DNA of 54,847 nt. Origin: an uncultured Bacteroidota bacterium (GTDB taxonomy: Bacteria > Bacteroidota > Bacteroidia > Bacteroidales > CAIWKO01). The notes beneath the pieces are model-generated. The model saw only the letters and a list, made by a program, of their open reading frames with translations. It made no database searches and was not told the origin of the DNA. Positions 34,050 through 45,171 of the stretch are shown piece by piece (within the stretch, counting starts at the first letter, position 1; each line of letters begins with the position of its first letter). Where the stretch lies: assembly GCA_937934705.1 (NCBI GenBank), contig CALGYY010000047.1, positions 1 to 54,847 on the forward strand, in the 5' to 3' direction. A program made the position numbers and the translations under genes.

Positions 34050-34053
34050 GAGA

Positions 34054-34491
34054 TCAGTCGTATTTGAGCCGTGTTTCCTCGTCAGCCAGAGCAGGTGCTA
34101 TCAGGCCCTGCCAGTGCCGTGTTTTCCATGTGCCGAGAGCAGCATGTGTAAGGTGGTATTTCTGCGGAATCGGGTGGGTTCCGAAAATCACTTCCAATCC
34201 GAATTTCTCACGAATGTAGCGTTCAAAATAATCGAGCCTTGGACAAGGCGGATAGCCCACCAGACAGCCCGTGGCAAAGTGAATTTTGCTGATCCCGTTT
34301 TTCTTCATCTCTTCCGGAGCATATTCAACATTTCCGCCGGGACACCCCCCGCAGTTTGCGTAAGCAGCAATTTCCACTTCCTCTCCTTTGTATATGGAGA
34401 AAGCGCCTTCCCTTTCCCTGAGTGCCCTGAAGCATTTGCCCCCTGCACAATCGCGGTAACGGTCACAAATGATCACGCCGATTTTAATCAT
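34054..34491 (-). CDS. CGGC-domain protein
   Basis: The track ORF starts at 34512. The Met at 34491 (MIKIGVIICDRYRDCAGGKC) fits the family N-terminus. The eponymous ANCGGCPG motif is present. Confidence 0.8.
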   Translation of the reverse strand: MIKIGVIICDRYRDCAGGKCFRALREREGAFSIYKGEEVEIAAYANCGGCPGGNVEYAPEEMKKNGISKIHFATGCLVGYPPCPRLDYFERYIREKFGLEVIFGTHPIPQKYHLTHAALGTWKTRHWQGLIAPALADEETRLKYD

Positions 34492-34501
34492 AAATGATAT
34501 T

Positions 34502-35350: not shown

Positions 35351-35351
35351 A

Positions 35352-35690
35352 TCAGTGGTCGCAATAATTGGATTCAAGCTTGAGTGAGCCGTCAAGAAAG
35401 GCCTGAACAAGCTCCTTTGCACTTTGTATCGGGGCACCTACAAAAACATTGATCTTTTGTTCCTTAAAAAGGTCGATGGCTCTTTGGCCCATACCTCCGG
35501 CAATCACGTCCGTAACACCATACTGGGCAATCCAGCGCGGATAGAGTCCGGGCTGATGCTCCGGTGGTGTTACATGAATTTCGGCACCCGCAACTCCGTT
35601 ATCTACCGTGATGATCGCGAAATTCTCACAATGTCCGAAATGGGGACAAAGCACCCTGTTTTCCAATGGAACAGCAATTTTCTTTTGCAT
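35352..35690 (-). CDS. NifX/NifB-C-terminal type (dinitrogenase Fe-Mo cofactor family) cluster-carrier protein
   Basis: 112 aa. MQKKIAVPLENRVLCPHFGHCENFAIITVD and GVTDVIAGGMGQRAIDLF are typical of this small-domain family. Confidence 0.85.
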   Translation of the reverse strand: MQKKIAVPLENRVLCPHFGHCENFAIITVDNGVAGAEIHVTPPEHQPGLYPRWIAQYGVTDVIAGGMGQRAIDLFKEQKINVFVGAPIQSAKELVQAFLDGSLKLESNYCDH

Positions 35691-35753
35691 GCATTAAATG
35701 TTTGAATGTTAAAAAAAGGGAGAGGGAGGGGGCAAAAGCCCCCGCCCGGGGAC

Positions 35754-35993
35754 TTATTCAGTCCCTCTGAAACGGTTCCTGCGGCCGGTTCCGCGACCAC
35801 GGGCACAAACCCTAAGACCGAAGCCATGTCCCCGTCCACCACCGTCCTTTCTACGCCCTCTTCCCTGAAAAACACCAGAAACTTCAGCATCCTGCTGATT
35901 TGAAGGGCTGCAAATAATTCCTGTGCAGCGTCCCATTTTGCGACCGGTCATGGGACCCTCCCCGGCCGGACCGCGTTGATCGAAATTTGGCAT
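35754..35993 (-). CDS. DUF5320 family protein (Arg/Gly-rich)
   Basis: 79 aa. MPNFDQRGPAGEGPMTGRKMGRC N-terminus followed by an RG-rich tail, the pattern I associate with DUF5320. Confidence 0.7.
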   Translation of the reverse strand: MPNFDQRGPAGEGPMTGRKMGRCTGIICSPSNQQDAEVSGVFQGRGRRKDGGGRGHGFGLRVCARGRGTGRRNRFRGTE

Positions 35994-36007
35994 ATGCTCT
36001 CCTTTCT

Positions 36008-36328
36008 TCAGTTGTGATCGAGTAAATCAATCACCTCCTGAATAGTTTTATCTTCTGTTTTCATGACGATCATTTGAATTTTCAGGCTATCGAGCAGAGA
36101 TTTTATCTTGATCCCGAACTCGCCTGAAACGATCTTCTTCACCCCTTTTGATGCCAGGAAGCGCACGGAAGAGGGACCTGCGCCTTCTTCTGCTTCCTTG
36201 TTGGGATTGGGCATGATTTCAACCGATTTTAGCTCCGTATCATAAATCACAAAATAGGAGCATCTGCCAAAACGCCCGTCAATTGTGCTGTTTAGATCCT
36301 TTCCTGTACTCGTGATGGCTGTTTTCAT
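36008..36328 (-). CDS. NifX/NifB-C-terminal type cluster-carrier protein (paralog)
   Basis: 106 aa. IDGRFGRCSYFVIYD and GVKKIVSGEFGIKIKSLL motifs. Confidence 0.85.
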   Translation of the reverse strand: MKTAITSTGKDLNSTIDGRFGRCSYFVIYDTELKSVEIMPNPNKEAEEGAGPSSVRFLASKGVKKIVSGEFGIKIKSLLDSLKIQMIVMKTEDKTIQEVIDLLDHN

Positions 36329-36340
36329 TGGATACTTGGT

Positions 36341-36823
36341 TTATGGATTCATCTGCCCCCGCCTTAATCTTCTTCTCCTGCAGGATTTCTCCTGAATTTC
36401 TTCCGGCACTTCTGTATAGTTGGAAACGCCTGAATGACCACAGAGAGGGCACTCCTCTACAGAACTGGCCTTATCCGGGTGATTGAAAAAACAACCACAG
36501 CCCTCGCAGGTATACCACTCACTGTCGAAGAAGATCTTCCCGCCCTCGATAATGATCTGTTTCCCGTTCACAAAAGCGTCTGCAATTTTCTGCAGAGCGC
36601 GGGCATAAATTCTGGTGAGCGTTGGTCTTGACACTTCCATGGCCAGGGCTGCCTCAACCTGACTGAAACCCTTGTGATCGCAAAGCCTCAATGCCTCATA
36701 TTCCTCAAAATGCAGAAACACCTTCTCCCGGGTCAAAGCCCTGTCAGAAGCTCCGTAAGGTTTAAATCCTGCAATAAGGGGCGGATCACTGATCTTTCTG
36801 AGTCTTTTTGGTCTGGGACACAT
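36341..36823 (-). CDS. DUF134 (UPF0251) predicted DNA-binding protein with C-terminal zinc ribbon
   Basis: 160 aa. MCPRPKRLRKISDPPLIAGFKPYG, HTH-like EYEALRLCDHKGFSQVEAALAMEVSRPTLTRIYARA, then CEGCGC...CPLCGH. Confidence 0.85.
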   Translation of the reverse strand: MCPRPKRLRKISDPPLIAGFKPYGASDRALTREKVFLHFEEYEALRLCDHKGFSQVEAALAMEVSRPTLTRIYARALQKIADAFVNGKQIIIEGGKIFFDSEWYTCEGCGCFFNHPDKASSVEECPLCGHSGVSNYTEVPEEIQEKSCRRRRLRRGQMNP

Positions 36824-36827
36824 AATA

Positions 36828-36867
36828 TGAACATTTGTTCACCACAAAGGTAATGAACATTTGTTCA
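36828..36867 (-). promoter_or_regulatory. Twin operator: two identical 14-bp perfect palindromes TGAACAtTTGTTCA (TGAACA-TT-TGTTCA) flanking a TAccTTTG -7-type box
   Basis: tgaacatttgttca occurs at 36828-36841 and 36854-36867. On the - strand TACCTTTG (36845-36852) sits between them. The proximal palindrome ends 4 nt from the DUF134 ATG. Confidence 0.6.
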
Positions 36868-36905
36868 AATGCAAGAAAAAATATCATTTTTTTTCGCCGG
36901 GCCTT

Positions 36906-38090
36906 TTATGATTTAGCCGGTTTCTGCTTCATCAGCTTTTCTGCCTTGCTCACCACCAGCGAAAGGTAAATGGCCAGCGGCCGGTAGGCCAGGTGTGACC
37001 ATTTGGAGAACGGTACTTCAATGATCAGCATGGGGAAAAGGATCATCAGATGAACAACGTACATAATATACGTGGGATAAGGCATGCCATTCACCCGGAA
37101 GAAGTGAACCAGGATGCCTGTAACTGCGGTCAGCATCAGCAGGAGGAGGAAGGTCCAGTCGGTAAAGTGGGTATGCTTGGCCTTTTCTGTTTTCTTTTTG
37201 ATGCGGAGTACACTGAAATAGATAATGCCACCGATTAGTCCTACCGTGGTGTAATAACCCAATAAACGCTGGGGATGCCACCAGTCATGAATCTCATCTG
37301 TCTGAAACCAGCCGAGGAAACCCACGATCATGGTGAAAAGCATAACATAACTTGACATGAGCAGAAAGTGTACAAGCCAGTAGGTGTTCTTTCCCTGCTT
37401 CAGTTTCTCCCGCCAGGAAATTTTTTCAGTATGGCATTTGGCAAATCTTCTTTGGGTTGCAAAATGTCCGATCAGGGCCGGCAACTGTGTAAAGTAGAGT
37501 TTGAAGGGTATCCTTAAGCCTTCTTTCACCCTGCTTCGTACAATTTTCAGATACATGCGAACCACATTTGAAAGCAGGAGGCTTGAGAGTACAGCGGCGA
37601 CTCCCCAGTCGACGAGTTCAATGATTTGCCACGGGGCGAAAGTGTTCAGTTTTACGCCCCCTTCAGGGGTGAGTTCTGTAGTCATTTCCCCGTGAAAGAA
37701 GATGAAACCCAGCAGTACCAGCAGGGCGATGAACAGGAGTGCGACAATTTCAAAAGTTTTGGATGTGTACAGCATGCGGGAGATCCCGGTCCAGTCGTAT
37801 TTGGCGATCAGATAACGGCGTGTCGCCATCATAAGATTCCCGGGGTTGGCTTCGCGCGGACAGGTGGTTGAACAGTCGCCACAATAATAGCACAGCCATG
37901 GGTCGAGGGAGCGCTGTATCTGCCCGTCTAGTCCCAGCACGGTATAACGCAGCATCTTCCTCGGGAAGGAATTTTCGCCGTCAGACAGGGAACAGATGGC
38001 CGTGCATGTACCGCAGTTGTAGCAGGCATCGAATTCGTTGGCGCCGAATTTCTTGATCTCTTTTCCGAACTCTGGATTCACTCTTGCCAT
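36906..38090 (-). CDS. QmoC-like membrane protein: HdrC-type 2x[4Fe-4S] domain fused to an HdrE/NarI-type multi-TM (cytochrome b-like) domain
   Basis: 394 aa. CYNCGTCTAICS and CYYCGDCSTTCP are followed by about six hydrophobic helices with conserved His residues. Confidence 0.75.
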   Translation of the reverse strand: MARVNPEFGKEIKKFGANEFDACYNCGTCTAICSLSDGENSFPRKMLRYTVLGLDGQIQRSLDPWLCYYCGDCSTTCPREANPGNLMMATRRYLIAKYDWTGISRMLYTSKTFEIVALLFIALLVLLGFIFFHGEMTTELTPEGGVKLNTFAPWQIIELVDWGVAAVLSSLLLSNVVRMYLKIVRSRVKEGLRIPFKLYFTQLPALIGHFATQRRFAKCHTEKISWREKLKQGKNTYWLVHFLLMSSYVMLFTMIVGFLGWFQTDEIHDWWHPQRLLGYYTTVGLIGGIIYFSVLRIKKKTEKAKHTHFTDWTFLLLLMLTAVTGILVHFFRVNGMPYPTYIMYVVHLMILFPMLIIEVPFSKWSHLAYRPLAIYLSLVVSKAEKLMKQKPAKS

Positions 38091-38095
38091 GGGGA

Positions 38096-40078
38096 TCAGT
38101 TTTTCATTTTATAATTGAAGTAGGTGTCGCTCTCATCCATGCCGTCGGGCACAACGATCCCGTATTTGTTCATGGTCATCAGATGCCAGGTCACCAGGTC
38201 ACTGCTTTTGTTGATCTGCTTCGAAAGATCCGGTATATTCATTGGCCCTGAAGCAAGAGCTTCTTCAATCTCTTTCCAGAGCTGGGGATATTCCTTCATG
38301 GTTACGGCCGGGGCTTCTTCATTCTCTGTTGTGCTTTCCTGTTGTTTCTCACGCATCTCGACCTTCTCCATAAAACCATCAATCATGCTTTCGATCTCGA
38401 GATTGGTAAACTGTGCCAGTTCAATCGCGTCAGGCGGGCAAACCGGTGCACATATCCCGCATCCGGCACAGGTAGCATTATTCACAACCGCCACCTGTTT
38501 TCCCTGAAATTCGATCTGACGGATGGCATCGTAATCGCAGACCTCCGCGCACTTTCCGCACCAGGTGCAGGCTTCGCTGTTAACCCTGGCCACCACCGGA
38601 TCCAGCGAAATGGTCCCGCCTCCTAACAAGGCATTCATCTTGGCCGCGGCTGAAAGTGAGGATTCAACCGATTCTGTAATATTCCTCGGTCCCTGGCAAC
38701 TGCCGCCGATATACACGCCTTTGATCACCGTTTCCACCGGTTTCAGTTTGGGGTGGATTTCGTTGAAAAAACGATCGCTGCCAATGGGAATCTTAAAAAC
38801 GTCTGCAATGCTTCGACTGTCTTCCCTGGCGACGGCACCGGTAACCAGCACGACAAGATCCAGTGGAATTTCAATTTCTTCTTTCGATGTGAGATAGTCT
38901 TTTACTTTAACCAGGACCTGATCGCCAGCAGCCTCCACAAGCGGCGGTTCTTTTTCATCCCAGCGAATATAGATATCGCCCTGTTTTGAAGACTTCTCAT
39001 AAAGGATTTCCTGCTTCCCGTATGTCCGTATGTCGCGGAATAAATGCCATGCGGTCACATCCCCGTATTTTTCCTTTATCTTCAGTGAGGTATGTATAGC
39101 CGCACTGCAGCAAAAGCGCGAGCAGTATTTATTTTCCCCTTTTTTCTGGCGGTTTCCGACACAATAAATGAAACCCACCTGTCTCACCTTTTTGCCGTCC
39201 ACCACCAGCTCACCCTGCTCTTTCACCATACGGTCGAAATCCGGCAGTGTGACGATGCGCTTTGAACTTCCGTAAGCATATTCATTCTCCTTTGGCTGAT
39301 AGCTGTCCATCCCTGTTGCCACAAGAACGGAGCCCACATTCAGGCTCAGCTTTTCATCATTATCGCCTGTTCCGATGCTGACGCCAACGTGAAAATTTCC
39401 CAGGCTTCCGCTGACTTTCTCAACTGTCGCCCTTGTAAAAACAGTGATGCCGCTGTGCCTGCGGATCTCTTCCTGCAGGCGACCCGTCAGTTCGCTGCCG
39501 CTCTGCCCGCTCATGAATAAGCTGCCTGCCTGTGCCACACGGCCACCGGTCTGCGCTTCCTTTTCAATCAGGTACACCTGGTTCCCCATGCGTGCCAGAT
39601 CAATCGCGGCACGCATTCCGGCTACTCCGGCACCGATGACCAAAGCCGCCTTCACGACTGGAATCTCAATGTTCTCCAGAGACTCAGAATGTGATACCCG
39701 CTTGATTCCTGCACGGATGAGCCCCACAGCCTTTATGCTGGCTTCCTTTTTATTATCGGAATGTGGCCAGGAACATTGTTCCCTGATATTGACCTGTACA
39801 TAATTGGAGGGGTTCAGTTTTGCCCTTTCAGCCACTCCACGGAAAGTATGCAGGTGAAGCTTGGGTGAGCAGGAAGCCACAACGATCGCGTCCAGTTTGT
39901 GCTCTTCAATATCACTGACCATCTGCTTCTGGTTGGAATCGGCACAGGCGAACATGACATCCTTTGAGATCACCACACCCGTCTCTTCTGCAAGCATTTT
40001 ACCGAGTTCTTCAACATCAACATAATCGGAGATGTTGCCCCCGCAATGACAGATATATACTCCTATTCTCTGTTTCAT
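38096..40078 (-). CDS. hdrA: HdrA-type FAD/FeS flavoprotein (QmoB-position) with C-terminal 2x[4Fe-4S] and an extra helical tail
   Basis: The ORF is open to 40243 but overlaps the upstream gene. The Met at 40078 gives MKQRIGVYICHCGGNISDYVD. FAD fold ALVIGAGVAGMRAAIDLA, HdrA signature YCVGNRQKKGENKYCSRFCC, CTWCGKCAEVC and CAGCGICAPVCP. Confidence 0.85.
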   Translation of the reverse strand: MKQRIGVYICHCGGNISDYVDVEELGKMLAEETGVVISKDVMFACADSNQKQMVSDIEEHKLDAIVVASCSPKLHLHTFRGVAERAKLNPSNYVQVNIREQCSWPHSDNKKEASIKAVGLIRAGIKRVSHSESLENIEIPVVKAALVIGAGVAGMRAAIDLARMGNQVYLIEKEAQTGGRVAQAGSLFMSGQSGSELTGRLQEEIRRHSGITVFTRATVEKVSGSLGNFHVGVSIGTGDNDEKLSLNVGSVLVATGMDSYQPKENEYAYGSSKRIVTLPDFDRMVKEQGELVVDGKKVRQVGFIYCVGNRQKKGENKYCSRFCCSAAIHTSLKIKEKYGDVTAWHLFRDIRTYGKQEILYEKSSKQGDIYIRWDEKEPPLVEAAGDQVLVKVKDYLTSKEEIEIPLDLVVLVTGAVAREDSRSIADVFKIPIGSDRFFNEIHPKLKPVETVIKGVYIGGSCQGPRNITESVESSLSAAAKMNALLGGGTISLDPVVARVNSEACTWCGKCAEVCDYDAIRQIEFQGKQVAVVNNATCAGCGICAPVCPPDAIELAQFTNLEIESMIDGFMEKVEMREKQQESTTENEEAPAVTMKEYPQLWKEIEEALASGPMNIPDLSKQINKSSDLVTWHLMTMNKYGIVVPDGMDESDTYFNYKMKN

Positions 40079-40103
40079 TATATGTGGTTTTTGAAAGGTA
40101 CTT

Positions 40104-42899
40104 TCAGGATCCGCAGTGACAGCCGCAGCTTTCCTGGTCAACACATGAATTATTGAGGTAGGCTGCCACTTCTGATGCCGCGCAACCTGCCGATAAGATG
40201 GAATCCGGAATATCTTTCGGGCCGGCAGCACTGCCGGCCACAAAAACGCCTTCGATACTGGTCAGGGCCGGATGGATCAGTTCGTCGGCTTGTCTGACAA
40301 AGTTAAATTCATCCAGTTCGAGCGTCTCATTGCTGAAGAACTTTGCCGTATCCTTATTGGGAACTACACCTACCGAAAGCACCACCAGATCATGTTTTGC
40401 CTCTTTCAGCACTCCGGTAGTGATATCCTCATATCGCAGTATCACATCCCCGTTGGGATTCGAGTCATCTTTAGCACGAATCTTAGCAACTTTTCCTTTA
40501 ATAAAATTAACCCCCATGGATTTTGCTTCCTGGAAGAATTCCTCGTAGCCTTTGCCAAATGCCCGGATGTCGATATAGTAGATGGTAATATCTGCCATGG
40601 GTAAAGCTCCCATCAGCAGTTGAGCCTGTTTGATGGAATACATGCAGCAGATCTGGGAGCAGATCGGGTTGTTGGCACAGTCATCCCCGCAACCCATATG
40701 GTTTTCGATACTGCGGTCGCGGGAACCCGCACAAAGTACATAGGCAATATTGTCAGGGACCTTGCCGTCGCCGGGGCGGAGAACGCTGTTGTAAGGGCGT
40801 GTGGGTGCGATCAGGCGATCCATCTGCAAGGAGTCGATCACGTTGCCGAGGCGGGCGTACCCCAGTTCGGGTTTGCCTTCCGGCTTAAAGAGTTTATATC
40901 CCGAAGCCACAATTACGCTTTTGACCTCTGCATCCAGAATTTCCGGTTTCTGCGAGAAATCGATCGCATAGGCCGGGCAGGCGGTCACGCATTGATGGCA
41001 CTCCCGGCAATTGGAACAGTCGAGGCAGCGGTTTGCACTTTGCAGAACTTCGGCCTCGGTGAAAGTCAGTTCCACATCCCTGAAATCGCGGACCCTTTCT
41101 TCTGCCGGCCTGAATCCGTGGTGCAGGGCGGGAAGGATATTGACCTTCGGTCTGTTCAGTACCTGCTGTTTATCCACAGCCGGCAGCTTTTCCCCGAATG
41201 CTCCCATCGGAAAATCTTCTTTCATCAGGAAGCTGTGCATATAAAATGCTGCTTTCTTTCCGCTTCCAATGGCTTCAATGATGGTGCTCGCGCCATTCTT
41301 CGAATCACCACCGGCAAAAACCCAGGGAACTTTTGTCTGGTGGGTTTCAGGATCGGCCTGAATGGTGCCGTCTTTTCCGACACCAATGGGGGTTTTAACA
41401 GACGATGTTGTCGGACGCAAGCCAATGGCTTCAATGACGAAATCAACCTCTTCCCAGTATTCTGAACCTTCCTCAGGAACCGGAAGCCTGCGGCCTTTTT
41501 CATCGGCCTTATCGAGTTTCATGCGGATCAGCTGAACCTTCTTCAGCTTGCCATTTTCGCCACTGAAGCGGACCGGGTTGCGCAACTGCATCAACTCAAC
41601 GCCTTCCTCAAGGGCCTCTTCGATCTCAATATCCCAGGCCGGCATCTCTGAACGGCTCCGGCGGTAAACAACACTCACTTTTGAGGCACCGAGTCTCAGG
41701 GCTGTACGGGCGGAATCCATAGCCGTATTTCCGCCTCCGATCACCATCACACGCTTCCCTTTCAGATCAGCCGGAGTGCCGATATTGGCCTCTCTCAGAA
41801 AATCCAGGCAGGAGACCACACCCCTCAAATCTGCACCTTCGACGCGTAATTGGCTCGTTTCATGGGTGCCGACCGCCACAAATACGGCATCGTACTTCCC
41901 TTCTTCCTTCAGGGCTTCCAGGTCATCCACCCGGGTGTTCAGCTGTATCTGCACCCCAAGGGCAGTGATATTCTGAATATCGCGGTCAACAACGCTCTTC
42001 GGAAGGCGGTATTCCGGAAGCGTCAGTTTCAGCATTCCCCCGGCCTGTGATGCGGCCTCATAAATTTTCACGGAGTGACCCTTCTGCGCCAGAAAATACG
42101 CGGCGGTTAATCCTGCCGGACCAGAGCCGATAACGGCGACTTTCTTTCCTGTGAAAGGCGGCATCTCTGCTTTGGGTGCTTCAGGGTATTGCTTATAATA
42201 TTCCTCTGCGAAGAATCTTTTAATCCTGCGGATATCCACGTGCTGATCCTGTGTATCCCGTGTACAGGCTTTCTGACAGGGAGCATAACAGGCCCGGCCC
42301 AGGCTTCCTGGAAGGGGTGCGTCTTCCATGTGAAGCTTCATGGCATCCTCATACTGGCGGTTTCTCACCAATGTGATATATCCGTATGGCTTCACGCCTC
42401 CCGGACATTCATTGATACAGGGTGCAGAAACATCCTGCCGGTCGATGGAAGCGATACGGGGATTGGCCAGGCTGAAGGGAATATAGGCTACTTTACGTCC
42501 GGCCAGGTGAGCGTTGTAATCATCGCTGCGCACCTCAGGGCATACCACTTCACATTCCCCGCATCCCGTACAGTTTTCCTGTATTACATAGCGGGGATTG
42601 CGGATGATACTGGCATTGAACACCCCGTTCTGCTTCACGATCCCGTGAATATCGCTGTTGAGCGAAAGCGTAATATTCGGGTGACGGGCTGTTTCCGACA
42701 TTTTAGGAGTAGTGATACAGGCGGCACAATCGAGTGTCGGAAAAACCTTGCTCAGTTGTATCATCTTTCCCCCGATGGACAGACCTTTCTCCACCAGCAG
42801 CACCTGATAATTCATGTTGGCGAGACTTAGTGCGGCTTCCTGTCCGGCAATCCCGCCGCCGATCACCATCACATCATACTTATTCCGGTTTGTTGACAT
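40104..42899 (-). CDS. HdrA-type flavoprotein with an embedded GltD/NfnB-type NAD(P)H oxidoreductase module (HdrL-like)
   Basis: 931 aa. N-terminal YDVMVIGGGIAGQEAALSLA and CTGCGECEVVCP. Insert with GRACYAPCQKAC, KKVAVIGSGPAGLTAAYFLAQKGHSV, MVIGGGNTAMDSART and VFAGGD. The chain then resumes with HdrA features CLDCSNCRECHQCVTACP and LCAGSRD...CSQICC. Confidence 0.85.
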   Translation of the reverse strand: MSTNRNKYDVMVIGGGIAGQEAALSLANMNYQVLLVEKGLSIGGKMIQLSKVFPTLDCAACITTPKMSETARHPNITLSLNSDIHGIVKQNGVFNASIIRNPRYVIQENCTGCGECEVVCPEVRSDDYNAHLAGRKVAYIPFSLANPRIASIDRQDVSAPCINECPGGVKPYGYITLVRNRQYEDAMKLHMEDAPLPGSLGRACYAPCQKACTRDTQDQHVDIRRIKRFFAEEYYKQYPEAPKAEMPPFTGKKVAVIGSGPAGLTAAYFLAQKGHSVKIYEAASQAGGMLKLTLPEYRLPKSVVDRDIQNITALGVQIQLNTRVDDLEALKEEGKYDAVFVAVGTHETSQLRVEGADLRGVVSCLDFLREANIGTPADLKGKRVMVIGGGNTAMDSARTALRLGASKVSVVYRRSRSEMPAWDIEIEEALEEGVELMQLRNPVRFSGENGKLKKVQLIRMKLDKADEKGRRLPVPEEGSEYWEEVDFVIEAIGLRPTTSSVKTPIGVGKDGTIQADPETHQTKVPWVFAGGDSKNGASTIIEAIGSGKKAAFYMHSFLMKEDFPMGAFGEKLPAVDKQQVLNRPKVNILPALHHGFRPAEERVRDFRDVELTFTEAEVLQSANRCLDCSNCRECHQCVTACPAYAIDFSQKPEILDAEVKSVIVASGYKLFKPEGKPELGYARLGNVIDSLQMDRLIAPTRPYNSVLRPGDGKVPDNIAYVLCAGSRDRSIENHMGCGDDCANNPICSQICCMYSIKQAQLLMGALPMADITIYYIDIRAFGKGYEEFFQEAKSMGVNFIKGKVAKIRAKDDSNPNGDVILRYEDITTGVLKEAKHDLVVLSVGVVPNKDTAKFFSNETLELDEFNFVRQADELIHPALTSIEGVFVAGSAAGPKDIPDSILSAGCAASEVAAYLNNSCVDQESCGCHCGS

Positions 42900-42918
42900 A
42901 TGAATTTCTTTTTATTGA

Positions 42919-43380
42919 CTAGGACGCCTTATTATTCAGCTCAGCCTGTATGCTTCCGATCTCAGATAAGATACGGCTGAAATTGTCCATGTGACTGGCA
43001 AAGGGTTCCGCGCATACGGAACAAATGGCTGCCATGCGGATACGTTTGGGATTGATCCCCTGCTCTTTCATCATTGATTGCGCGTGGTTGATGAGGTCGT
43101 TGGTGCGGTCGGGACAACTGGCGCTGTAAGAACATTCATGTCCGTCGGCTGCGATGAAAACCCCGTCAAACCCCTGCCTGTAGGCATGCATGATCCATCG
43201 CGGTTTGATCCCCGAAGAGCATGGCATACTGATCACATAAACCGAGGGAGAATAATGAATTTTTCGCAGGCCGGCCTGGTCAATGCCCGGATCTGAGATC
43301 TTGTCAGTGGAGAAGACCAGGATTTTTGGTTGAAAACTGTTGGTGGTGGACATATTCGCTTTATGATTTGGACAATACAA
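42919..43380 (-). CDS. MvhD/FlpD-like (methyl-viologen-reducing hydrogenase delta subunit family) protein
   Basis: 153 aa; the start may be the Met at 43353. KILVFSTDKIS...VISMPCSSGIKPRWIMHAYRQGFDGVFIAADGHECSY aligns by eye with the MvhD fold but has an altered Cys pattern. Confidence 0.7.
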   Translation of the reverse strand: MYCPNHKANMSTTNSFQPKILVFSTDKISDPGIDQAGLRKIHYSPSVYVISMPCSSGIKPRWIMHAYRQGFDGVFIAADGHECSYSASCPDRTNDLINHAQSMMKEQGINPKRIRMAAICSVCAEPFASHMDNFSRILSEIGSIQAELNNKAS

Positions 43381-43441
43381 TCCTGAGACCCCGGCCTTTG
43401 AATGCGGGGTTTATTTTTGTACTATTCTGTTTACGAATTAC

Positions 43442-43699
43442 TTATGCTTTTTTCAGAAAAAGTCTGGAATAGCTGTCTTCCTCCACGATGCCAAGGAACT
43501 GGTGTTCCATTTTTTCGCACCATTTCGGGATGTCGTGTTTGGTTCCTTCGTCAGACGAAAGGATCTCCATGATCTCGCCGGATTCAATATCTCCGATGGC
43601 TTTTTTGGCTGCAAGCAGTGGTCCGGGGCATGCTGTTCCGCGGGCGTCAACAAGTTTGTTGGAGGTGAGGTTTCTGAGTTCTTCGGGTGTCATAATCAT
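43442..43699 (-). CDS. tusA: TusA/SirA-family sulfurtransferase
   Basis: 85 aa. DARGTACPGPLLAAKKAI active-site Cys motif and a two-layer alpha/beta-sized protein. Confidence 0.85.
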   Translation of the reverse strand: MIMTPEELRNLTSNKLVDARGTACPGPLLAAKKAIGDIESGEIMEILSSDEGTKHDIPKWCEKMEHQFLGIVEEDSYSRLFLKKA

Positions 43700-43728
43700 T
43701 ATTTTTATGTGATTTTACTTTTTCGTGA

Positions 43729-44298
43729 TCAGATAAAGAGCTGTACTTTGCTTTCGCTGGCATCGGCCAGGAAAGTGGCCACACCGCAGATGTTCATATG
43801 AGGATAGTCGATCATTTCTTCTTTTTTGAAGCCCATGAGGTTCATCGACATTTCGCAGATGTTGATTTCGACGCCCAGTTCGCCGGCAGTGGTGAACATT
43901 TCAGGGAGTGAGGCCACCTTATGTTTCTTCATGATGCCTTTGATCATGGATGTTCCCATTCCGCCCATATTCATTTTGCTCAGCTTAACCTTACGACTTC
44001 CTTTGGGAAGCATCATCCCGAACATCTTTTCCATGAAGGTTTTTCCGCTCACCTTTTTCTTCGGGTCACGCAGGGCTGCAATTGCCCAGAAAGTGAAGAA
44101 GAGTTTCACCTTCATATCATAAGCGGCAGCGCCTGTGGAAATAATCATGGCAGCCAGGATCTTGTCGAGATCGCCGGAAAAAACGACCATCGATAACTGG
44201 TCTTTGGTTCCCTTTTCCATTTTTCCGATCTTCTGCTGCAGTTCCTGTATCTGTTTTTCAAGTTCAGCACTCATAGGTTTGATTTTAAGTTTAAACAA
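43729..44298 (-). CDS. DsrE/DsrF/DrsH-like family protein
   Basis: 189 aa; the start may be the Met at 44274. MVVFSGDLDKILAAMIISTGAAAYDMKVKLFFTFW...LSKMNMGGMGTSMIKGIM...ICEMSMNLMGFKKEE matches the DrsE_2-type family usually paired with TusA. Confidence 0.8.
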   Translation of the reverse strand: MFKLKIKPMSAELEKQIQELQQKIGKMEKGTKDQLSMVVFSGDLDKILAAMIISTGAAAYDMKVKLFFTFWAIAALRDPKKKVSGKTFMEKMFGMMLPKGSRKVKLSKMNMGGMGTSMIKGIMKKHKVASLPEMFTTAGELGVEINICEMSMNLMGFKKEEMIDYPHMNICGVATFLADASESKVQLFI

Positions 44299-44303
44299 AA
44301 GTA
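44296..44303 (-). promoter_or_regulatory. Candidate -7 box (TActTTTG) for the dsrE-like operon
   Basis: The reverse complement of caaaagta matches the Bacteroidota TAnnTTTG consensus. It is only compatible with the internal start at 44274. Confidence 0.3.
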
Positions 44304-44355
44304 AGAGGTCTCATGAAGTCTTCAGCATCCCTGCCTGTGCATTTTCGCAAAGCCG

Positions 44356-44375
44356 GGTGTGATTTATATCACACC
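44356..44375. promoter_or_regulatory. Perfect 20-bp palindrome containing a consensus CRP-type site TGTGA-N6-TCACA
   Basis: GGTGTGATttatATCACACC has perfect 8-bp arms. Core TGTGA at 44358-44362 and TCACA at 44369-44373. It lies in the 192-bp divergent region between the dsrE-like operon and the Crp/Fnr gene. Confidence 0.65.
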
Positions 44376-44490: not shown

Positions 44491-45171
44491 ATGGCAACTC
44501 ACCTTTGTACTTCCTGCCCGCTCAAATCTCCTGCTGCCCGCAACCTGACAGATGAGGAACTCGGGATACTTGAAAAGAACAGCGCCTTGGTGCATTTTAA
44601 GAAAGGAGAGATCATTTTCCGGGAGGATGCATTATCGACCAATGTGGCCTATCTGCGGACCGGTATTGCCAAGATTCACAAAAGGGGGCCAGCTGCGGAT
44701 AAGATCCTCAGGGTTGTGAAAGCGCCCACCTATCTGGGTATCCCGACCAGTATGGGAGAAAAGATCAACCAGTTTTCTGCGACTGCACTGGTGGAAACAA
44801 GTGTCTGTTTTATCGACACCAATCTGTTCCGCAATTTTATTTTCCAGAACGGTGCATTTGCTTACGAAATCATCATGGAGCTTTGCCGTCATGAGCTCAA
44901 TGACTACCAGCGTTTCACTTCACAGTCCCAAAAACAGGTTCCGGGTATTGTTGCCGAGACCCTGCTTTGTTTCTCGGAAAAGATTTTCGCCAACACCCGT
45001 TTTCAGTTTCCGCTCACCCGCGGAGAGATCGGGGACCTCGTAGGAACCTCCCGCGAAAGTGTAAGCAGGGTTCTCACCGATCTGGCCGGTGAAGGGATTA
45101 TTACCTATGACGCCAGGGAGATCACGATTCTGGATCCGGAGCGTTTGAAGCAGATCAGTGATAAGGGTTGA
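44491..45171 (+). CDS. Crp/Fnr family transcriptional regulator
   Basis: 226 aa. cNMP-binding-like beta-barrel (FKKGEIIFREDA), C-terminal HTH (LTRGEIGDLVGTSRESVSRVLTDL) and an N-terminal CTSC pair. Confidence 0.85.
   Translation: MATHLCTSCPLKSPAARNLTDEELGILEKNSALVHFKKGEIIFREDALSTNVAYLRTGIAKIHKRGPAADKILRVVKAPTYLGIPTSMGEKINQFSATALVETSVCFIDTNLFRNFIFQNGAFAYEIIMELCRHELNDYQRFTSQSQKQVPGIVAETLLCFSEKIFANTRFQFPLTRGEIGDLVGTSRESVSRVLTDLAGEGIITYDAREITILDPERLKQISDKG

What the first reader, a model, noticed from the sequence alone, without database searches (positions are those of the whole stretch)
36906..44298. Module A: DsrE-like / TusA / MvhD-like / HdrA::GltD / HdrA / QmoC-like, a Qmo-shaped complex with an NAD(P)H entry point and a sulfur-carrier front end
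Two HdrA-type flavoproteins followed by an HdrC-domain/multi-TM fusion mirror qmoA-qmoB-qmoC. There are three differences. The MvhD-like domain, which is fused to the QmoB C-terminus in sulfate reducers, is a separate upstream gene. The QmoA-position protein carries a full GltD/NfnB-type NAD(P)H module. The operon begins with a TusA plus DsrE/DrsH-like pair, which elsewhere shuttle persulfide sulfur. This suggests electron flow between the quinone pool, NAD(P)H and a sulfur-carrier protein rather than APS reductase.
Basis: partly seen in the sequence, partly recalled or inferred. Interest (0 to 1): 0.8.

Follow-up and report, generated by a model that had tools for sequence, protein, structure and literature searches.

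The report
Sulfur-carrier-linked Qmo-like NADPH/quinone complex
A Bacteroidales genome carries a six-gene operon for a membrane redox complex built like the sulfate reducers' Qmo complex but wired to NADPH and to the sulfur-carrier proteins TusA and DsrE2 instead of APS reductase; it belongs to a widespread, uncharacterised family whose function in anoxic sulfur cycling can now be tested.

Summary
On the minus strand, 36906-44274 encodes DsrE2-like, TusA, MvhD-like, HdrL (an HdrA-type flavoprotein with an NfnB/GltD NADPH module nested in its inserted ferredoxin domain), a second HdrA and a QmoC-like di-cluster/6-TM protein. A CRP-type operator and a divergent Crp/Fnr gene lie upstream.

It is not a relocated ordinary Qmo. 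QmoC scores 211 bits against a 300-bit cutoff. Both flavoproteins are closer to archaeal HdrA than to canonical QmoA/B. No aprBA is nearby, and the source is a Bacteroidales MAG.

The gene order TusA-MvhD-QmoA-like-QmoB-like-winged helix-QmoC recurs in 42 of 80 related loci, from Bacteroidota, Krumholzibacteriota, Chloroflexota, Desulfobacterota and PVC bacteria. TusA is present wherever the upstream sequence exists. A sister cluster replaces TusA with a [NiFe] hydrogenase. The HdrL subtype is common in Bacteroidota, and its relatives add cysteine desulfurases, DsrC, DsrK-like proteins, SQR and rhodaneses.

Most likely this is a Qmo/Hdr-type complex linking menaquinone, NADPH and TusA/DsrE2-bound sulfane sulfur. 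The direction of electron flow and the catalytic site for sulfur are unresolved. I rate it a new variant of a known kind, with moderately high interest.

The parts
44491..45171 (+). Divergent Crp/Fnr-family regulator. It has a cNMP-binding domain, an HTH_Crp_2 domain and N-terminal Cys6-x2-Cys9.
   Evidence: Pfam; NCBIfam Fnr/FixK-like matches below cutoffs; sequence. A Crp gene sits in the same position in L013, L014, L016, L032 and L083-L087.
44358..44373 (.). Perfect CRP-type palindrome TGTGA-N6-TCACA, the likely operator of the operon.
   Evidence: It is the only match in the window, against 0.05 expected. A perfect palindrome lies 75-150 bp upstream of dsrE2 in L005, L013, L017, L018 and L083-L087. 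There are 23 matches in 1.39 Mb of loci against about 1.3 expected.
44296..44303 (-). TACTTTTG, which matches the Bacteroidetes -7 promoter consensus TAnnTTTG. That consensus is from general knowledge.
   Evidence: Read directly from the sequence. The role is inferred.
43729..44274 (-). DsrE2-like sulfur-transferase-family protein (PF13686), 181 aa, soluble, with an N-terminal coiled-coil stretch.
   Evidence: Pfam 166.8 bits. The NCBIfam DsrE2 equivalog scores 62.5, below the 210 cutoff. Cys140 is conserved in 20/20 orthologues.
43442..43693 (-). TusA sulfur carrier, 83 aa, with the active-site motif D-A-R-G-T-A-C22-P-G-P.
   Evidence: Pfam 77.2 bits. Cys22 and the DxR...CPGP motif are conserved in 43/43 across phyla. 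The gene lies directly upstream of mvhD in all 42 complete type-1 loci.
42919..43353 (-). MvhD/FlpD-like iron-sulfur protein, 144 aa, encoded as a separate gene.
   Evidence: Pfam 95.3 bits. C111 and C114 are conserved in 42/43, C74 in 35/43. It is 30% identical to the MvhD domain of a canonical QmoB.
40104..42899 (-). HdrL, the QmoA-position HdrA-type flavoprotein, 931 aa. It has FAD, the FPTLDC58AAC61 motif, two inserted-ferredoxin clusters and an HA4-type cluster, plus a nested NfnB/GltD module.
   Evidence: It is 37% identical (303 bits) to M. wolfeii HdrA and 31% identical (195 bits) to canonical QmoA.
41064..42437 (-). NfnB/GltD-type NAD(P)H module (residues about 155-612). It lies between the two CxxCxxCxxxCP motifs of the inserted ferredoxin domain. 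The second Rossmann motif reads GGGNTAMD...VVYRRSRSEMPA.
   Evidence: Alignment to 5odc_A. PDB matches are 9bov_A 383 bits, 9n5u_A 'NfnA' 357 bits and T. maritima NfnB 4ylf_B 297 bits. The GltD-specific Cys occur only in the 4 HdrL sequences out of 40.
38096..40078 (-). HdrA, the QmoB-position flavoprotein, 660 aa. It has an N-terminal 4-Cys domain, FAD, an HA4-type cluster and a C-terminal 2x[4Fe-4S] ferredoxin domain. It has no inserted ferredoxin domain and no CxxC.
   Evidence: It aligns to 5odc_A residues 4-234 and 315-650. The conserved Cys are present in 40/40. It scores 391 bits in total against M. wolfeii HdrA and 149 bits against canonical QmoB.
38099..38341 (-). Winged-helix-like C-terminal extension of HdrA. 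In most related loci it is a separate gene of about 90 aa between the QmoB-like gene and qmoC.
   Evidence: Small ORFs. Pfam matches are weak: HTH_5, MarR and DUF7342 at 3e-5. Fusion is seen only in the HdrL subtype. The single-sequence model has low confidence.
36906..38090 (-). QmoC-like subunit, 394 aa. Residues 1-100 form an HdrC-like 2x[4Fe-4S] domain. Six TM helices follow, with conserved His241, 308, 329, 347 and 366.
   Evidence: NCBIfam qmoC 210.9 bits, full length, below the 300 cutoff. HdrC 7bkb_C matches at 1.3e-14. Hydropathy and the AF2 model, pLDDT 77.8. Cys are conserved in 80/80 and His in 79-80/80. Comparison with canonical QmoC.

Best explanation
Module A is one operon. It runs from the CRP-type operator and -7 box at about 44300-44373 to the qmoC stop at 36906. 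It encodes a membrane-anchored redox complex built on the Hdr/Qmo chassis.

Shown by sequence:
- A QmoA-like subunit (HdrL) and a QmoB-like subunit (HdrA) split between them the domains and clusters of an archaeal HdrA.
- A separate MvhD-like protein is encoded upstream.
- A QmoC-like subunit joins an HdrC-type di-cluster domain to a six-helix, His-rich membrane domain.
- An NfnB/GltD-type NAD(P)H-FAD-2x[4Fe-4S] module is nested in the inserted ferredoxin domain of HdrL.

Inferred by analogy with MvhADG-HdrABC and QmoABC: the complex has three ports. The first is NADPH at HdrL. It is wired to the branch that in HdrA leads to ferredoxin. The second is menaquinone/menaquinol at QmoC. The third is the MvhD/QmoB-like branch. 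In the sister cluster that branch is served by a [NiFe] hydrogenase. Here its genes sit next to TusA and DsrE2.

My committed reading is that the third substrate is sulfane sulfur carried as a persulfide on TusA/DsrE2. In this fermentative Bacteroidales the complex would reduce that sulfur to sulfide with NADPH, together with menaquinol. This is confurcation, the same logic proposed for Qmo and APS, and it would let quinol oxidation at QmoC contribute to the membrane potential. The reverse reaction is thermodynamically allowed and cannot be excluded. In it, sulfide/persulfide at about -270 mV is bifurcated to menaquinone at -75 mV and NADP+ at about -320 to -370 mV.

The site where sulfur meets the electrons is unknown.
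For: Domain content and cofactor ligands.

QmoC: 8 Cys are conserved in 80/80, there are 6 TM helices, four His are invariant and one nearly so. The best fold match is the di-haem/FeS membrane protein EtfD, followed by HdrC.

Not canonical Qmo:
- The qmoC HMM gives 210.9 bits against a 300 cutoff, while control P0352 gives 378.9.
- In an NJ tree the window, all type-1 and type-2 loci and nine representative sequences form an 88-leaf clade. That clade excludes the 11-member canonical clade.
- HdrL and HdrA are closer to M. wolfeii HdrA (303 and 391 bits) than to canonical QmoA/B (195 and 149 bits).
- The canonical control locus L089 has aprB-aprA-qmoABC. Unbiased clustering of neighbours found no recurrent apr-like family in the loci.

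Sulfur link:
- TusA with its active Cys is present in 42/42 complete type-1 loci across phyla.
- DsrE2 occurs in 19 loci, and a DsrE (PF02635) is confirmed after qmoC in Desulfobacterota locus L061.
- Secreted rhodaneses occur in 7 Bacteroidota loci.
- ArsR-type two-Cys regulators occur in Chloroflexota loci.
- In HdrL-type relatives the same operon region holds cysteine desulfurases, a 2-Cys DsrC, a DsrK/HmcF-like protein, a type III SQR and TauE.

The sister type-2 cluster has the same core plus a [NiFe] hydrogenase. It co-occurs with type 1 in the same MAGs.

Desulfobacterota MAGs, whose lineage generally has canonical Qmo, also carry type 1.

The confurcation idea for Qmo is from PMC3333476.
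Against: - Module A contains no HdrB/CCG or other recognisable sulfur- or disulfide-reducing site. The HdrC/HdrB-like pair at 30300-32061 lies behind a separate promoter and accompanies only 2 of the related loci.
- The MvhD-like protein keeps only 2-3 Cys universally.
- One of the four His conserved in canonical QmoC is Gln in all 80 family members, so haem ligation is not proven.
- Foldseek gave no match at E<=1e-3.
- The window itself has no DsrC, cysteine desulfurase, SQR or rhodanese.
- The rest of the genome could not be inspected for aprAB, dsrAB or sat.
- The direction of electron flow rests on thermodynamic reasoning and neighbouring genes only.
- No expression or biochemical data exist for any member, as far as I could find.
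Confidence: 0.45

Rival explanations
1. It is an NADPH:menaquinone oxidoreductase, possibly bifurcating to ferredoxin through the MvhD branch, and its redox substrates do not include sulfur. TusA and DsrE2 would only supply or sense sulfur. For example, they could serve cluster maturation, regulation by persulfidation, or the neighbouring ORP-like metallocluster proteins.
For: All the cofactors needed for NADPH-to-quinone transfer are present, and no sulfur-active site is. ORP-like, NifX-like and MinD-Fer4 genes follow the operon here and in L003-L005, L014, L047, L077 and L085. Cysteine desulfurase and NifX-like genes precede it in L083 and L087. The sister type-2 complex works with H2 and needs no sulfur.
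Against: TusA is the one accessory gene kept in every type-1 locus, from Bacteroidota to Chloroflexota and Desulfobacterota. It is always adjacent to mvhD, and its catalytic Cys is invariant. The ORP-like genes are not universal and have their own promoter. Rhodaneses, DsrC, DsrK-like proteins and SQR in relatives point to sulfur trafficking rather than cofactor assembly.
Confidence: 0.25
2. It runs oxidatively. Sulfide or carrier-bound sulfane sulfur is the mid-potential donor, and a flavin-based bifurcation sends its electrons to menaquinone and NADP+. This would be a sulfide-detoxifying and NADPH-generating complex.
For: The reaction is thermodynamically favourable: a donor near -270 mV against an acceptor mean near -200 to -220 mV (reasoning from standard potentials). 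The NADPH module sits on the branch that is low-potential in HdrA. This would explain why NADP+ replaces ferredoxin when the donor is sulfur rather than H2. A type III SQR with DsrC/TusE and a DsrE2-like protein lies next to the cluster in L085. Two-Cys ArsR regulators occur in Chloroflexota loci.
Against: No oxidising catalytic module such as sHdrB, DsrAB or LbpA was found in the operon. The hosts appear to be fermentative heterotrophs with no obvious need for sulfide-derived NADPH. Cysteine desulfurases and DsrK/DsrC-type genes in relatives fit reductive handling of sulfane sulfur at least as well.
Confidence: 0.2
3. It is an ordinary QmoABC relocated away from aprBA-sat, serving APS reductase encoded elsewhere in the genome.
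For: The three-subunit layout and the full-length match to the qmoC model fit. JGI annotates some homologues as QmoC. The rest of the genome could not be inspected.
Against: The score is below the equivalog cutoff, while a canonical control passes. The window lies in a clade separate from canonical QmoC. The flavoproteins are closer to HdrA than to QmoA/B and keep clusters that canonical QmoB has lost. MvhD is not fused. The named sources are Bacteroidales. The cluster occurs as an extra system in Desulfobacterota MAGs. The operon starts with TusA and DsrE2.
Confidence: 0.03
4. It is a heterodisulfide or DsrC-type disulfide reductase. In this reading Module A works with the HdrC/HdrB-like proteins encoded 5 kb downstream (30300-32061). 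Together they would form a membrane-linked HdrABC-MvhD-like enzyme that reduces a protein disulfide or trisulfide.
For: HdrC- and HdrB-like genes give full-length matches of 98 and 132 bits. They lie on the same strand downstream here and next to the cluster in L005. L087 has a DsrK/HmcF-like protein and a 2-Cys DsrC inside the operon.
Against: The HdrCB-like pair accompanies only 2 of the related loci. In the window it lies behind the separately promoted ORP-like cluster. QmoC already occupies the HdrC position. No DsrC is encoded in the window.
Confidence: 0.07

Closest known systems
Canonical (type I) QmoABC of sulfate reducers and green sulfur bacteria
   Same: Both have two HdrA-derived flavoproteins plus a QmoC that fuses an HdrC-like 2x[4Fe-4S] domain to a multi-helix cytochrome-b-type membrane domain. 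Both have an MvhD-type module in the system and a link to the menaquinone pool. Three of the four His conserved in canonical QmoC are invariant here.
   Different: - QmoC is only 26% identical to the canonical one and scores below the equivalog cutoff.
- The window falls in a separate clade.
- MvhD is a separate gene.
- The QmoB-like subunit keeps the N-terminal and HA4-type clusters that canonical QmoB has lost, and it carries a winged-helix tail.
- The QmoA-like subunit carries an NfnB/GltD module.
- No aprBA is adjacent, whereas control L089 has it.
- The operon begins with DsrE2 and TusA.

'Type II' HdrA-like QmoABC (Chernyh 2020, as cited in PMC8477390; Neukirchen 2023, PMC10504309)
   Same: These are described as Qmo complexes whose QmoAB subunits are closer to HdrA than to bacterial QmoAB. 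They are found in organisms with or without Dsr/Apr, and their function is unknown. That description fits the window's proteins.
   Different: No direct sequence comparison with the V. moutnovskia or A. degensii proteins was possible. In the papers I could search, the published description mentions neither the TusA/DsrE2 linkage nor the HdrL fusion, the winged-helix component or the hydrogenase-linked sister cluster.
HdrL-MvhD of Desulfobacterium autotrophicum HRM2 (PMC2702500) and Desulfurivibrio dismutans (PMC12142623)
   Same: An HdrA-type flavoprotein is fused to a glutamate-synthase-type NAD(P)H module, and it is encoded next to mvhD.
   Different: Those HdrL proteins are predicted to be soluble. 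They sit next to dsrABC or fdhAB, with no QmoC, no second HdrA and no TusA. Orthology with the window's HdrL was not tested.
MvhADG-HdrABC electron-bifurcating heterodisulfide reductase (PDB 5ODC and relatives)
   Same: HdrL and HdrA together contain the full HdrA domain set: the N-terminal cluster domain, the TrxR-like FAD domain, the HA4-type cluster, the inserted ferredoxin domain and the C-terminal ferredoxin domain. MvhD is present, and an HdrC-like domain is present within QmoC.
   Different: The domains are split over two paralogues, implying a heterodimer instead of a homodimer. There is no HdrB catalytic subunit. Hydrogenase occurs only in the sister type-2 cluster. A membrane haem domain takes the place of HdrB. 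NADPH sits on the ferredoxin branch.
NfnAB / NfnB-type NADPH modules (PDB 4YLF, 5JCA; 9N5U; 9BOV; 8OH5)
   Same: The inserted module aligns over its full length, 297-383 bits. It has the Fer4_20 clusters, the FAD and NADPH Rossmann motifs and the YRR(S/T)xxEMPA motif.
   Different: There is no NfnA-type partner. The module is nested inside an HdrA-type subunit, so its iron-sulfur chain feeds another flavoprotein rather than ferredoxin.
sHdr sulfur-oxidising system and rDsr sulfur relay (TusA, DsrE2/DsrE3, rhodanese; PMC11094781)
   Same: Hdr-type redox proteins are encoded together with TusA and a DsrE-family transferase. Rhodaneses are present in related loci.
   Different: The operon has no sHdrB1/B2 or sHdrC1/C2 set, and lipoate-binding protein was not looked for. 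The DsrE2-like protein fails the DsrE2 equivalog cutoff, 62.5 against 210. The complex is quinone-linked through a QmoC-type subunit.
EtfD / DsrMK / HdrDE type membrane FeS-cytochrome b modules
   Same: The best structural match of the QmoC model is M. smegmatis EtfD, 9ojn, with probability 0.99. The logic is the same: FeS clusters plus di-haem b passing electrons to menaquinone.
   Different: QmoC has no CCG domain. The match is weak (E = 0.078, TM-score 0.28).

Membership tests
Canonical QmoABC (type I) | QmoC reaches the curated equivalog score (NCBIfam NF038018, cutoff 300 bits) | tested here: not met
   The window scores 210.9 bits in a full-length match. Canonical control P0352 scores 378.9 bits. 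Nine other family representatives score 106-213 bits.
Canonical QmoABC (type I) | qmoABC adjacent to, or co-occurring with, aprBA (and sat) | tested here: not met
   The window has no apr or sat genes. Neighbour clustering of the related loci found no recurrent Apr-like family. Control locus L089 shows aprB-aprA-qmoA-qmoB-qmoC. The rest of the source genome could not be inspected.
Canonical QmoABC (type I) | QmoB carries a C-terminal MvhD-like domain | tested here: not met
   The window's HdrA ends in a winged-helix-like tail, and MvhD is a separate upstream gene. Canonical QmoB in L089 has FlpD fused.
Canonical QmoABC (type I) | Flavoprotein subunits group with QmoA/QmoB rather than with HdrA | tested here: not met
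   The HdrL core scores 303 bits against M. wolfeii HdrA and 195 bits against canonical QmoA. HdrA scores 391 bits against M. wolfeii HdrA and 149 bits against canonical QmoB. This is pairwise BLASTP against one canonical reference each, not a full phylogeny.
Canonical QmoABC (type I) | QmoC architecture: HdrC-like 2x[4Fe-4S] domain plus multi-helix membrane domain | tested here: met
   Eight Cys are conserved in 80/80. HdrC 7bkb_C matches at 1.3e-14. Six helices appear in both the hydropathy profile and the AF2 model.
Canonical QmoABC (type I) | The four His conserved in canonical QmoC (candidate ligands of two haems b) | tested here: inconclusive
   Three of the four align with invariant His241, His347 and His366. 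The fourth is Gln213 in all 80 family members. The family has two extra conserved His, His308 (80/80) and His329 (79/80). Haem binding itself cannot be tested with these tools.
'Type II' HdrA-like Qmo (Chernyh 2020; Neukirchen 2023) | QmoA/B closer to HdrA than to type I QmoA/B, with QmoC outside the type I clade | tested here: met
   The definition is taken from PMC10504309 and PMC8477390.
'Type II' HdrA-like Qmo (Chernyh 2020; Neukirchen 2023) | Clusters with the reference type II proteins of V. moutnovskia / A. degensii | not tested
HdrL (HdrA::GltD fusion, Strittmatter 2009) | HdrA-type FAD/FeS protein fused to a glutamate-synthase-type NAD(P)H domain, encoded next to mvhD | tested here: met
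   mvhD lies immediately upstream. The definition is from PMC2702500.
HdrL (HdrA::GltD fusion, Strittmatter 2009) | Orthology with D. autotrophicum HdrL1-3 (same insertion point) | not tested
   No D. autotrophicum sequence was at hand. All named close homologues are Bacteroidota, apart from one MAG labelled Syntrophothermus.
HdrABC-MvhADG heterodisulfide reductase | HdrB (CCG domains, non-cubane clusters) as the catalytic subunit in the complex | tested here: not met
   Module A has no CCG protein. An HdrB-like gene lies 5.4 kb downstream, behind another promoter.
HdrABC-MvhADG heterodisulfide reductase | Single HdrA carrying all six clusters, with MvhAG hydrogenase as partner | tested here: not met
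   The domains are split between HdrL and HdrA. The window has no hydrogenase. Hydrogenase is present only in the type-2 sister loci.
sHdr sulfur-oxidising system | shdrC1B1AHC2B2 gene set with a lipoate-binding protein | tested here: not met
   The operon has no HdrB or HdrC pairs. LbpA was not searched for specifically.
TusA family | TusA fold with the conserved Cys in the CPxP motif | tested here: met
   PF01206 scores 77.2, above the 28.6 cutoff. Cys22-Pro-Gly-Pro is conserved in 43/43. The E. coli-type TusA equivalog scores 55.7, below 78, and is not met.
DsrE2 sulfur carrier | DsrE2 equivalog score and conserved active Cys | tested here: inconclusive
   PF13686 scores 166.8, above the 25 cutoff. 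NF047629 scores 62.5, below 210. Cys140 is conserved in 20/20 and Cys163 in 11/20.

The most novel reading that the evidence does not exclude
The TusA-MvhD-QmoA-like-QmoB-like-wH-QmoC family would be a new class of flavin-based electron-bifurcating/confurcating enzyme. Its mid-potential substrate would be the sulfide/protein-persulfide couple, splitting or joining electrons between menaquinone and a low-potential carrier. That carrier is NADP(H), hard-wired in the Bacteroidota HdrL subtype, and ferredoxin elsewhere. This would give abundant 'non-sulfur' anaerobes (Bacteroidales, Anaerolineae, Krumholzibacteriota) an energy-conserving role in cryptic sulfur cycling. It would also show where the long-sought second electron partner docks on Qmo-type complexes.
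Probability: 0.2. Interest if true: 0.85.

Novelty: new variant of a known kind. Interest (0 to 1): 0.68.

Why it matters
- Qmo has been understood only as the partner of APS reductase. Its energetics, meaning whether a second donor is confurcated with menaquinol, remain unsettled (PMC3333476). Here a relative of Qmo has an NADPH module fused exactly at the inserted ferredoxin domain of the QmoA-position subunit. A sister complex has a hydrogenase at the MvhD side. Together these are natural experiments that show the three ports of this chassis.
- The family is large. At least 579 GTDB species representatives matched the scan patterns and encode a relative of the window's QmoC (tblastn E<=1e-3). 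In the 1.84-billion-protein library, 178 clusters at 50% identity match at E<=1e-30. The family sits in lineages that dominate anoxic sediments and digesters but are not counted as sulfur metabolisers.
- If TusA-bound sulfur is its substrate, the complex would be an unrecognised route for cytoplasmic sulfane-sulfur reduction or sulfide oxidation. That bears on sulfide budgets, on reactive-sulfur detoxification in anaerobes, and on annotation. At present these genes are variously labelled glutamate synthase, heterodisulfide reductase, ferredoxin or QmoC.

Tried and rejected
- PDB sequence search for a solved Qmo found none. Only HdrC matched, and only the first 95 residues of QmoC.
- Foldseek of the QmoC model gave no match at E<=1e-3. 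EtfD, HdrC and NarI appear only weakly, so the fold evidence is suggestive, not decisive.
- The single-sequence AF2 model of the winged-helix tail had pLDDT 58.5. It was too poor to search with, so I did not run a fold search.
- The sigma-70 promoter and terminator scan did not exceed shuffles and does not suit Bacteroidota promoters. I read the intergenic regions directly instead.
- I suspected that the second HdrA-HdrA-QmoC-like set after the cluster in L061 and L070 was the canonical qmoABC. In L061 it is MTHFR + HdrA-MvhD + HdrC + HdrB; L070 was not re-checked.
- A search of the window for DsrC, cysteine desulfurase, DsrK-like and SQR-like genes, using relatives' proteins as queries, found nothing beyond DsrE2 itself.
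- The QmoC NJ tree does not recover the HdrL-subtype loci as one clade. They nevertheless share three derived traits. The trees are distance-based and have no support values.
- Six literature searches found no paper describing a TusA-linked Qmo-like cluster. The library is open-access only, so Appel 2021, Chernyh 2020 and Tanabe 2019 could not be read.
- The Cys-rich C-terminal tail of HdrL (CGCHCGS) looked like an extra metal site. It is unique to this sequence, 1 of 40, so I dropped it.

Full report
**What is in the sequence**

The minus strand between 36906 and 44274 carries six closely spaced genes. Pfam and NCBIfam assign them as follows.
- A DrsE_2/DsrE2-like protein: PF13686 166.8 bits. 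The DsrE2 equivalog scores only 62.5 against a 210 cutoff.
- TusA: PF01206 77.2 bits.
- An MvhD/FlpD protein: 95.3 bits.
- A 931-aa protein that matches HdrA2 at both ends (6.5e-131) and GltD/NfnB-type NAD(P)H proteins in the middle. The middle matches are PRK12771 505.5 bits, Fer4_20 at residues 158-235 and Pyr_redox_2 at residues 252-547.
- A 660-aa HdrA: 512 bits to HdrA2.
- A 394-aa protein that matches the qmoC equivalog model end to end, but at 210.9 bits against a cutoff of 300.

Public gene calls on the identical DNA (MAG GCA_036782535.1) and the promoter position correct three start codons. They also remove the apparent HdrL/HdrA overlap.

**The operon and its control**

A perfect TGTGA-N6-TCACA palindrome lies at 44358-44373, 84 bp upstream of the dsrE2 ATG. 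It is the only one in the window, against 0.05 expected. The motif TACTTTTG at 44296-44303 matches the Bacteroidetes -7 box. A Crp/Fnr-family gene is transcribed divergently.

The same palindrome sits 75-150 bp upstream of dsrE2 in L005, L013, L017, L018 and L083-L087. There are 23 matches in 1.39 Mb of loci, against about 1.3 expected.

Downstream of qmoC the 82-bp spacer holds two exact copies of the palindrome TGAACAAATGTTCA, flanking TACCTTTG. The following ORP-like genes therefore appear to form their own transcription unit. These are DUF134, two Nitro_FeMo-Co proteins, DUF5320, ARMT1, CGGC and two MinD-Fer4 proteins, ending with the HdrC- and HdrB-like genes.

**Anatomy of the flavoproteins**

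I aligned both proteins to M. wolfeii HdrA (5ODC chain A).

The QmoB-position HdrA has:
- the N-terminal four-Cys domain;
- the FAD domain;
- the CVG..KYC..CC cluster motif;
- the C-terminal 2x[4Fe-4S] ferredoxin domain.

It lacks the inserted ferredoxin domain (5ODC residues 237-312) and the FPTNDCSIC motif.

HdrL is the complement. It has no N- or C-terminal domains. It keeps FPTLDC58AAC61, both CxxCxxCxxxCP motifs of the inserted ferredoxin domain and the HA4-type motif.

The NfnB/GltD module (residues about 155-612) is nested between the two ferredoxin motifs. Its best solved relatives are NADPH-binding modules: 9bov_A 383 bits, 9n5u_A 'NfnA' 357 bits and T. maritima NfnB 4ylf_B 297 bits. 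The motif VVYRRSRSEMPA aligns with VLYRRTREEMPA. NADPH preference is an inference from that homology.

Across 40 orthologue pairs every cluster ligand named above is conserved in 40/40. The GltD Cys occur only in the four HdrL sequences. No QmoB-like protein has the CxxC.

The last 85 or so residues of the window's HdrA form a winged-helix-like module. In most relatives this module is a separate gene of about 90 aa between the QmoB-like gene and qmoC.

**The membrane subunit**

Residues 3-93 align with HdrC (7bkb_C, 1.3e-14). Hydropathy and an AF2 model (pLDDT 77.8) give six helices. The positive-inside rule places the HdrC-like domain in the cytoplasm.

In 80 family members from several phyla the eight cluster Cys and His241, 308, 347 and 366 are invariant. 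His329 is present in 79 of 80.

A nuance came from canonical QmoC sequences recovered later. The canonical clade conserves four His. Three align with His241, His347 and His366. The fourth aligns with Gln213, which is Gln in all 80 family members. His308 and His329 are specific to the family.

Foldseek gave only weak matches: M. smegmatis EtfD 9ojn at E = 0.078 and probability 0.99, then HdrC chains, then NarI at probability 0.2-0.3. Two haems are plausible but not shown.

**It is not an ordinary Qmo**

- The closest homologues of QmoC (60-77% identity) and of HdrL (68-82%) that carry names are Bacteroidales/Bacteroidota MAGs, apart from one HdrL homologue from a MAG labelled Syntrophothermus.
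- A search of 1.84 billion cluster representatives found 178 relatives at E<=1e-30. Ten were scored with the qmoC model. Only P0352, 28% identical to the window, passed at 378.9 bits. Nine others at 30-51% identity scored 106-213 bits.
- Contigs carrying P0352, P0357 and P0377 show the canonical context. L089 reads aprB-aprA-qmoA(421)-qmoB(761, FlpD fused)-qmoC(402).
- In an NJ tree of 170 sequences, the window, all type-1 and type-2 loci and nine representatives form an 88-leaf clade. That clade excludes the 11-member canonical clade. The tree has no support values.
- The HdrL core scores 303 bits against M. wolfeii HdrA and 195 against canonical QmoA. HdrA scores 391 against M. wolfeii HdrA and 149 against canonical QmoB. 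Canonical QmoB has lost the N-terminal CxC and the HA4-type Cys that the window's protein retains.

This matches the published description of a 'type II' Qmo. [quoted passage not shown] I could not compare with the reference type II sequences.

**Conserved neighbourhood**

A scan of one genome per GTDB species returned at least 579 species that encode a relative. The 80 best were fetched. Searching their ORFs with the window's proteins gave two architectures.

Type 1 (42 loci) has the order [DsrE2]-TusA-MvhD-QmoA-like (about 435 aa)-QmoB-like (about 645 aa)-winged-helix (about 90 aa)-QmoC.
- It occurs in Bacteroidota, Krumholzibacteriota, Verrucomicrobia, Phycisphaerae, Chloroflexota/Anaerolineae and Desulfobacterota.
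- Every locus with this core and enough upstream sequence has TusA next to mvhD. The remaining loci are cut by contig ends.
- TusA Cys22 and its motif are conserved in 43/43. DsrE2 Cys140 is conserved in 20/20.
- DsrE2 is present in 19 loci (Bacteroidota, Krumholzibacteriota, Phycisphaerae).
- In Desulfobacterota locus L061 a DsrE (PF02635) follows qmoC.

Unbiased clustering of all neighbours added the following:
- secreted or lipoprotein rhodaneses upstream of dsrE2 in seven Bacteroidota loci;
- ArsR-type regulators, with two Cys in the L047 representative, in Chloroflexota loci;
- sigma-54 response regulators in Desulfobacterota.

Type 2 (21 loci: Bacteroidales, Ignavibacteriales, Calditrichia) has the order HdrA-QmoC-HdrA-MvhD. 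A [NiFe] hydrogenase small subunit, large subunit and protease follow, with hypFED nearby.

Type 1 and type 2 co-occur in the same MAGs: L013 with L039, L008 with L043, and L087 with L044. They are therefore not redundant.

**The HdrL subtype**

Three derived traits go together:
- the GltD insert in the QmoA-like subunit;
- complete loss of the inserted ferredoxin domain from the QmoB-like subunit;
- fusion of the winged-helix module to the QmoB-like C-terminus.

The subtype is common. There are 120 or more 90%-identity clusters of proteins about 915 aa long at 68-82% identity. All the named ones but one are Bacteroidota, including Tenuifilaceae and Paludibacter MAGs; the exception is a MAG labelled Syntrophothermus.

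The neighbourhoods of these relatives are rich in sulfur genes.
- L083 has a NifX-like gene and a SufS-like aminotransferase before dsrE2. Thioredoxin, TauE and OsmC follow the cluster.
- L085 has an aminotransferase and a PALP enzyme upstream. Downstream it has a type III SQR (647.7 bits against a 525 cutoff), a one-Cys DsrC/TusE and a second DsrE2-like gene.
- L087 has a SufS-like gene, a two-Cys DsrC (96.3 bits against 53.5), a 206-aa membrane protein, a DsrK/HmcF/TmcB-like protein (295 bits) and a cysteine desulfurase (421 bits against 377). All lie between the Crp gene and dsrE2.
- L086 has TauE, ThiF and an extra DsrE.

The window itself has none of these extras.

**How it most likely works**

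The cofactor inventory and its conservation are shown by sequence.

The wiring is inferred by analogy with MvhADG-HdrABC (from my knowledge of the published structure) and with Qmo (PMC3333476).
- NADPH reduces the NfnB-type FAD. Electrons pass through its two clusters into the two inserted-ferredoxin clusters and reach the HdrL flavin.
- The HA4-type clusters connect to the HdrC-like clusters of QmoC, then to haem b and menaquinone.
- MvhD feeds, or is fed by, the C-terminal ferredoxin and N-terminal cluster domains of the QmoB-like subunit.

In type 2 the partner at that last port is a hydrogenase. In type 1 the only conserved extra genes are TusA and a DsrE-family protein.

I therefore take carrier-bound sulfane sulfur as the third substrate. 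Thermodynamics allows either direction.
- NADPH (about -320 to -370 mV) plus menaquinol (-75 mV) can jointly reduce persulfide sulfur (about -270 mV standard, higher at low sulfide). This is the confurcation logic proposed for APS.
- Sulfide/persulfide can instead be bifurcated to menaquinone and NADP+.

The second direction would explain why NADP+ rather than ferredoxin sits on the low-potential branch when the donor is sulfur and not H2.

Cysteine desulfurases and DsrC/DsrK-type genes in relatives, together with the fermentative character of the hosts, make me favour the reductive direction. The preference is weak.

The chief gap is that no site for sulfur chemistry can be identified. Module A has no CCG domain, and the MvhD-like protein keeps only two or three Cys universally.

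**Rivals**

- A sulfur-independent NADPH:menaquinone (± ferredoxin) enzyme, with TusA as an accessory, is the main rival (0.25).
- Oxidative operation is a variant of the main reading (0.2).
- Partnership with the downstream HdrCB-like pair is unlikely, because that pair is rarely syntenic and is separately promoted (0.07).
- The ordinary-Qmo reading is essentially refuted (0.03). The whole genome could not be checked for aprBA-sat.

**Novelty and verdict**

Each part is a known kind: Qmo/Hdr chassis, HdrL fusion, TusA/DsrE relay. A one-sentence notice of non-canonical 'type II' Qmo in organisms without Dsr/Apr exists. In the searchable literature I found no description of any of the following:
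- the universal TusA linkage;
- the winged-helix component;
- the HdrL subtype with its three coupled changes;
- the hydrogenase-linked sister complex;
- the CRP-type operator.

I rate the finding a new variant of a known kind, interest 0.68. My confidence that this is a non-canonical Qmo-type complex with NADPH and quinone ports is about 0.85. My confidence that TusA/DsrE2-bound sulfur is its third redox substrate is about 0.45-0.5.

Noticed in passing
L025, L029, L033, L035-L037, L039, L042-L045, L048, L049, L051, L052, L057, L059, L062, L067-L069 (e.g. L042:8177-13974): A sister 'type 2' cluster: Crp | HdrA(~600)-QmoC(~377)-HdrA(~578)-MvhD, followed by [NiFe] hydrogenase small and large subunits and a protease, with hypFED nearby. 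This looks like an H2-linked, quinone-linked Hdr/Qmo hybrid in Bacteroidales, Ignavibacteriales and Calditrichia. It co-occurs with type 1 in the same MAGs.
   Followed up: partly
window 32311-36823 (-), promoter region 36824-36905: An ORP-like ('orange protein complex'-type) gene set: DUF134, two Nitro_FeMo-Co proteins, DUF5320, ARMT1/DUF89, CGGC and two MinD/CbiA-Fer4 ATPases. It is preceded by two exact TGAACAAATGTTCA palindromes (36828-36841, 36854-36867) flanking TACCTTTG. Similar genes follow the Qmo-like cluster in L003-L005, L014, L047, L077 and L085.
   Followed up: partly
window 30300-32333 (-): A small ferredoxin (32061-32333), an HdrC-like gene (31354-32061) and an HdrB-like gene (30300-31364) close the ORP-like cluster. 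They give full-length matches below the equivalog cutoffs. A similar pair lies beside the cluster in L005. Whether they work with Module A is open.
   Followed up: partly
L087:2110-16053: A Bacteroidetes MAG operon reads: Crp | 113-aa protein, SufS-like, two-Cys DsrC, 206-aa membrane protein, DsrK/HmcF-like, cysteine desulfurase, DsrE2, TusA, MvhD, HdrL, HdrA, QmoC. This places a DsrC/DsrMK-like module and cysteine desulfurases inside the same unit in an organism not known to use Dsr.
   Followed up: partly
L085:18786-22373: In a Tenuifilaceae MAG, a type III sulfide:quinone reductase (NCBIfam 647.7 against a 525 cutoff) lies 3 kb downstream of the HdrL-type cluster. With it are a second Crp gene, an HMP-like protein, a one-Cys DsrC/TusE and a second DsrE2-like gene.
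   Followed up: no
window 40104-40145 (C-terminus of HdrL): The Cys-rich tail ...SCVDQESCGCHCGS is present only in this sequence among 40 orthologues. Its significance is unknown.
   Followed up: yes
window 44491-45171 (+): The Crp/Fnr-family regulator has Cys6-x2-Cys9 at its N-terminus plus Cys106, Cys132 and Cys160. This is reminiscent of cluster- or thiol-based sensing, but the effector is unknown.
   Followed up: no
L047:5243-5554, and cluster-16 homologues in L056, L065, L072, L075, L077, L081, L082: An ArsR/SmtB-type regulator gene recurs near the type-1 cluster, lying upstream of tusA in Chloroflexota loci (also in the deltaproteobacterial locus L072). The L047 representative has two Cys, one N-terminal and one C-terminal. 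The spacing recalls the persulfide-sensing SqrR/BigR type. That comparison is from memory and was not tested.
   Followed up: no
L070, L073, L076 (tusA ORFs of 173-207 aa): In some Desulfobacterota the TusA gene is a tandem. A Cys-less TusA-like domain precedes the active TusA domain.
   Followed up: no
window 1974-3644 and 3647-5293 (-): Two adjacent ORFs of about 550 aa have no Pfam match at 1e-5. They lie next to ferritin and apolipoprotein N-acyltransferase genes.
   Followed up: no
window 6003-11115 (-): An F-type ATP synthase gene run (a, b, delta, alpha, gamma) has no beta or epsilon gene adjacent. Ferritin follows gamma.
   Followed up: no
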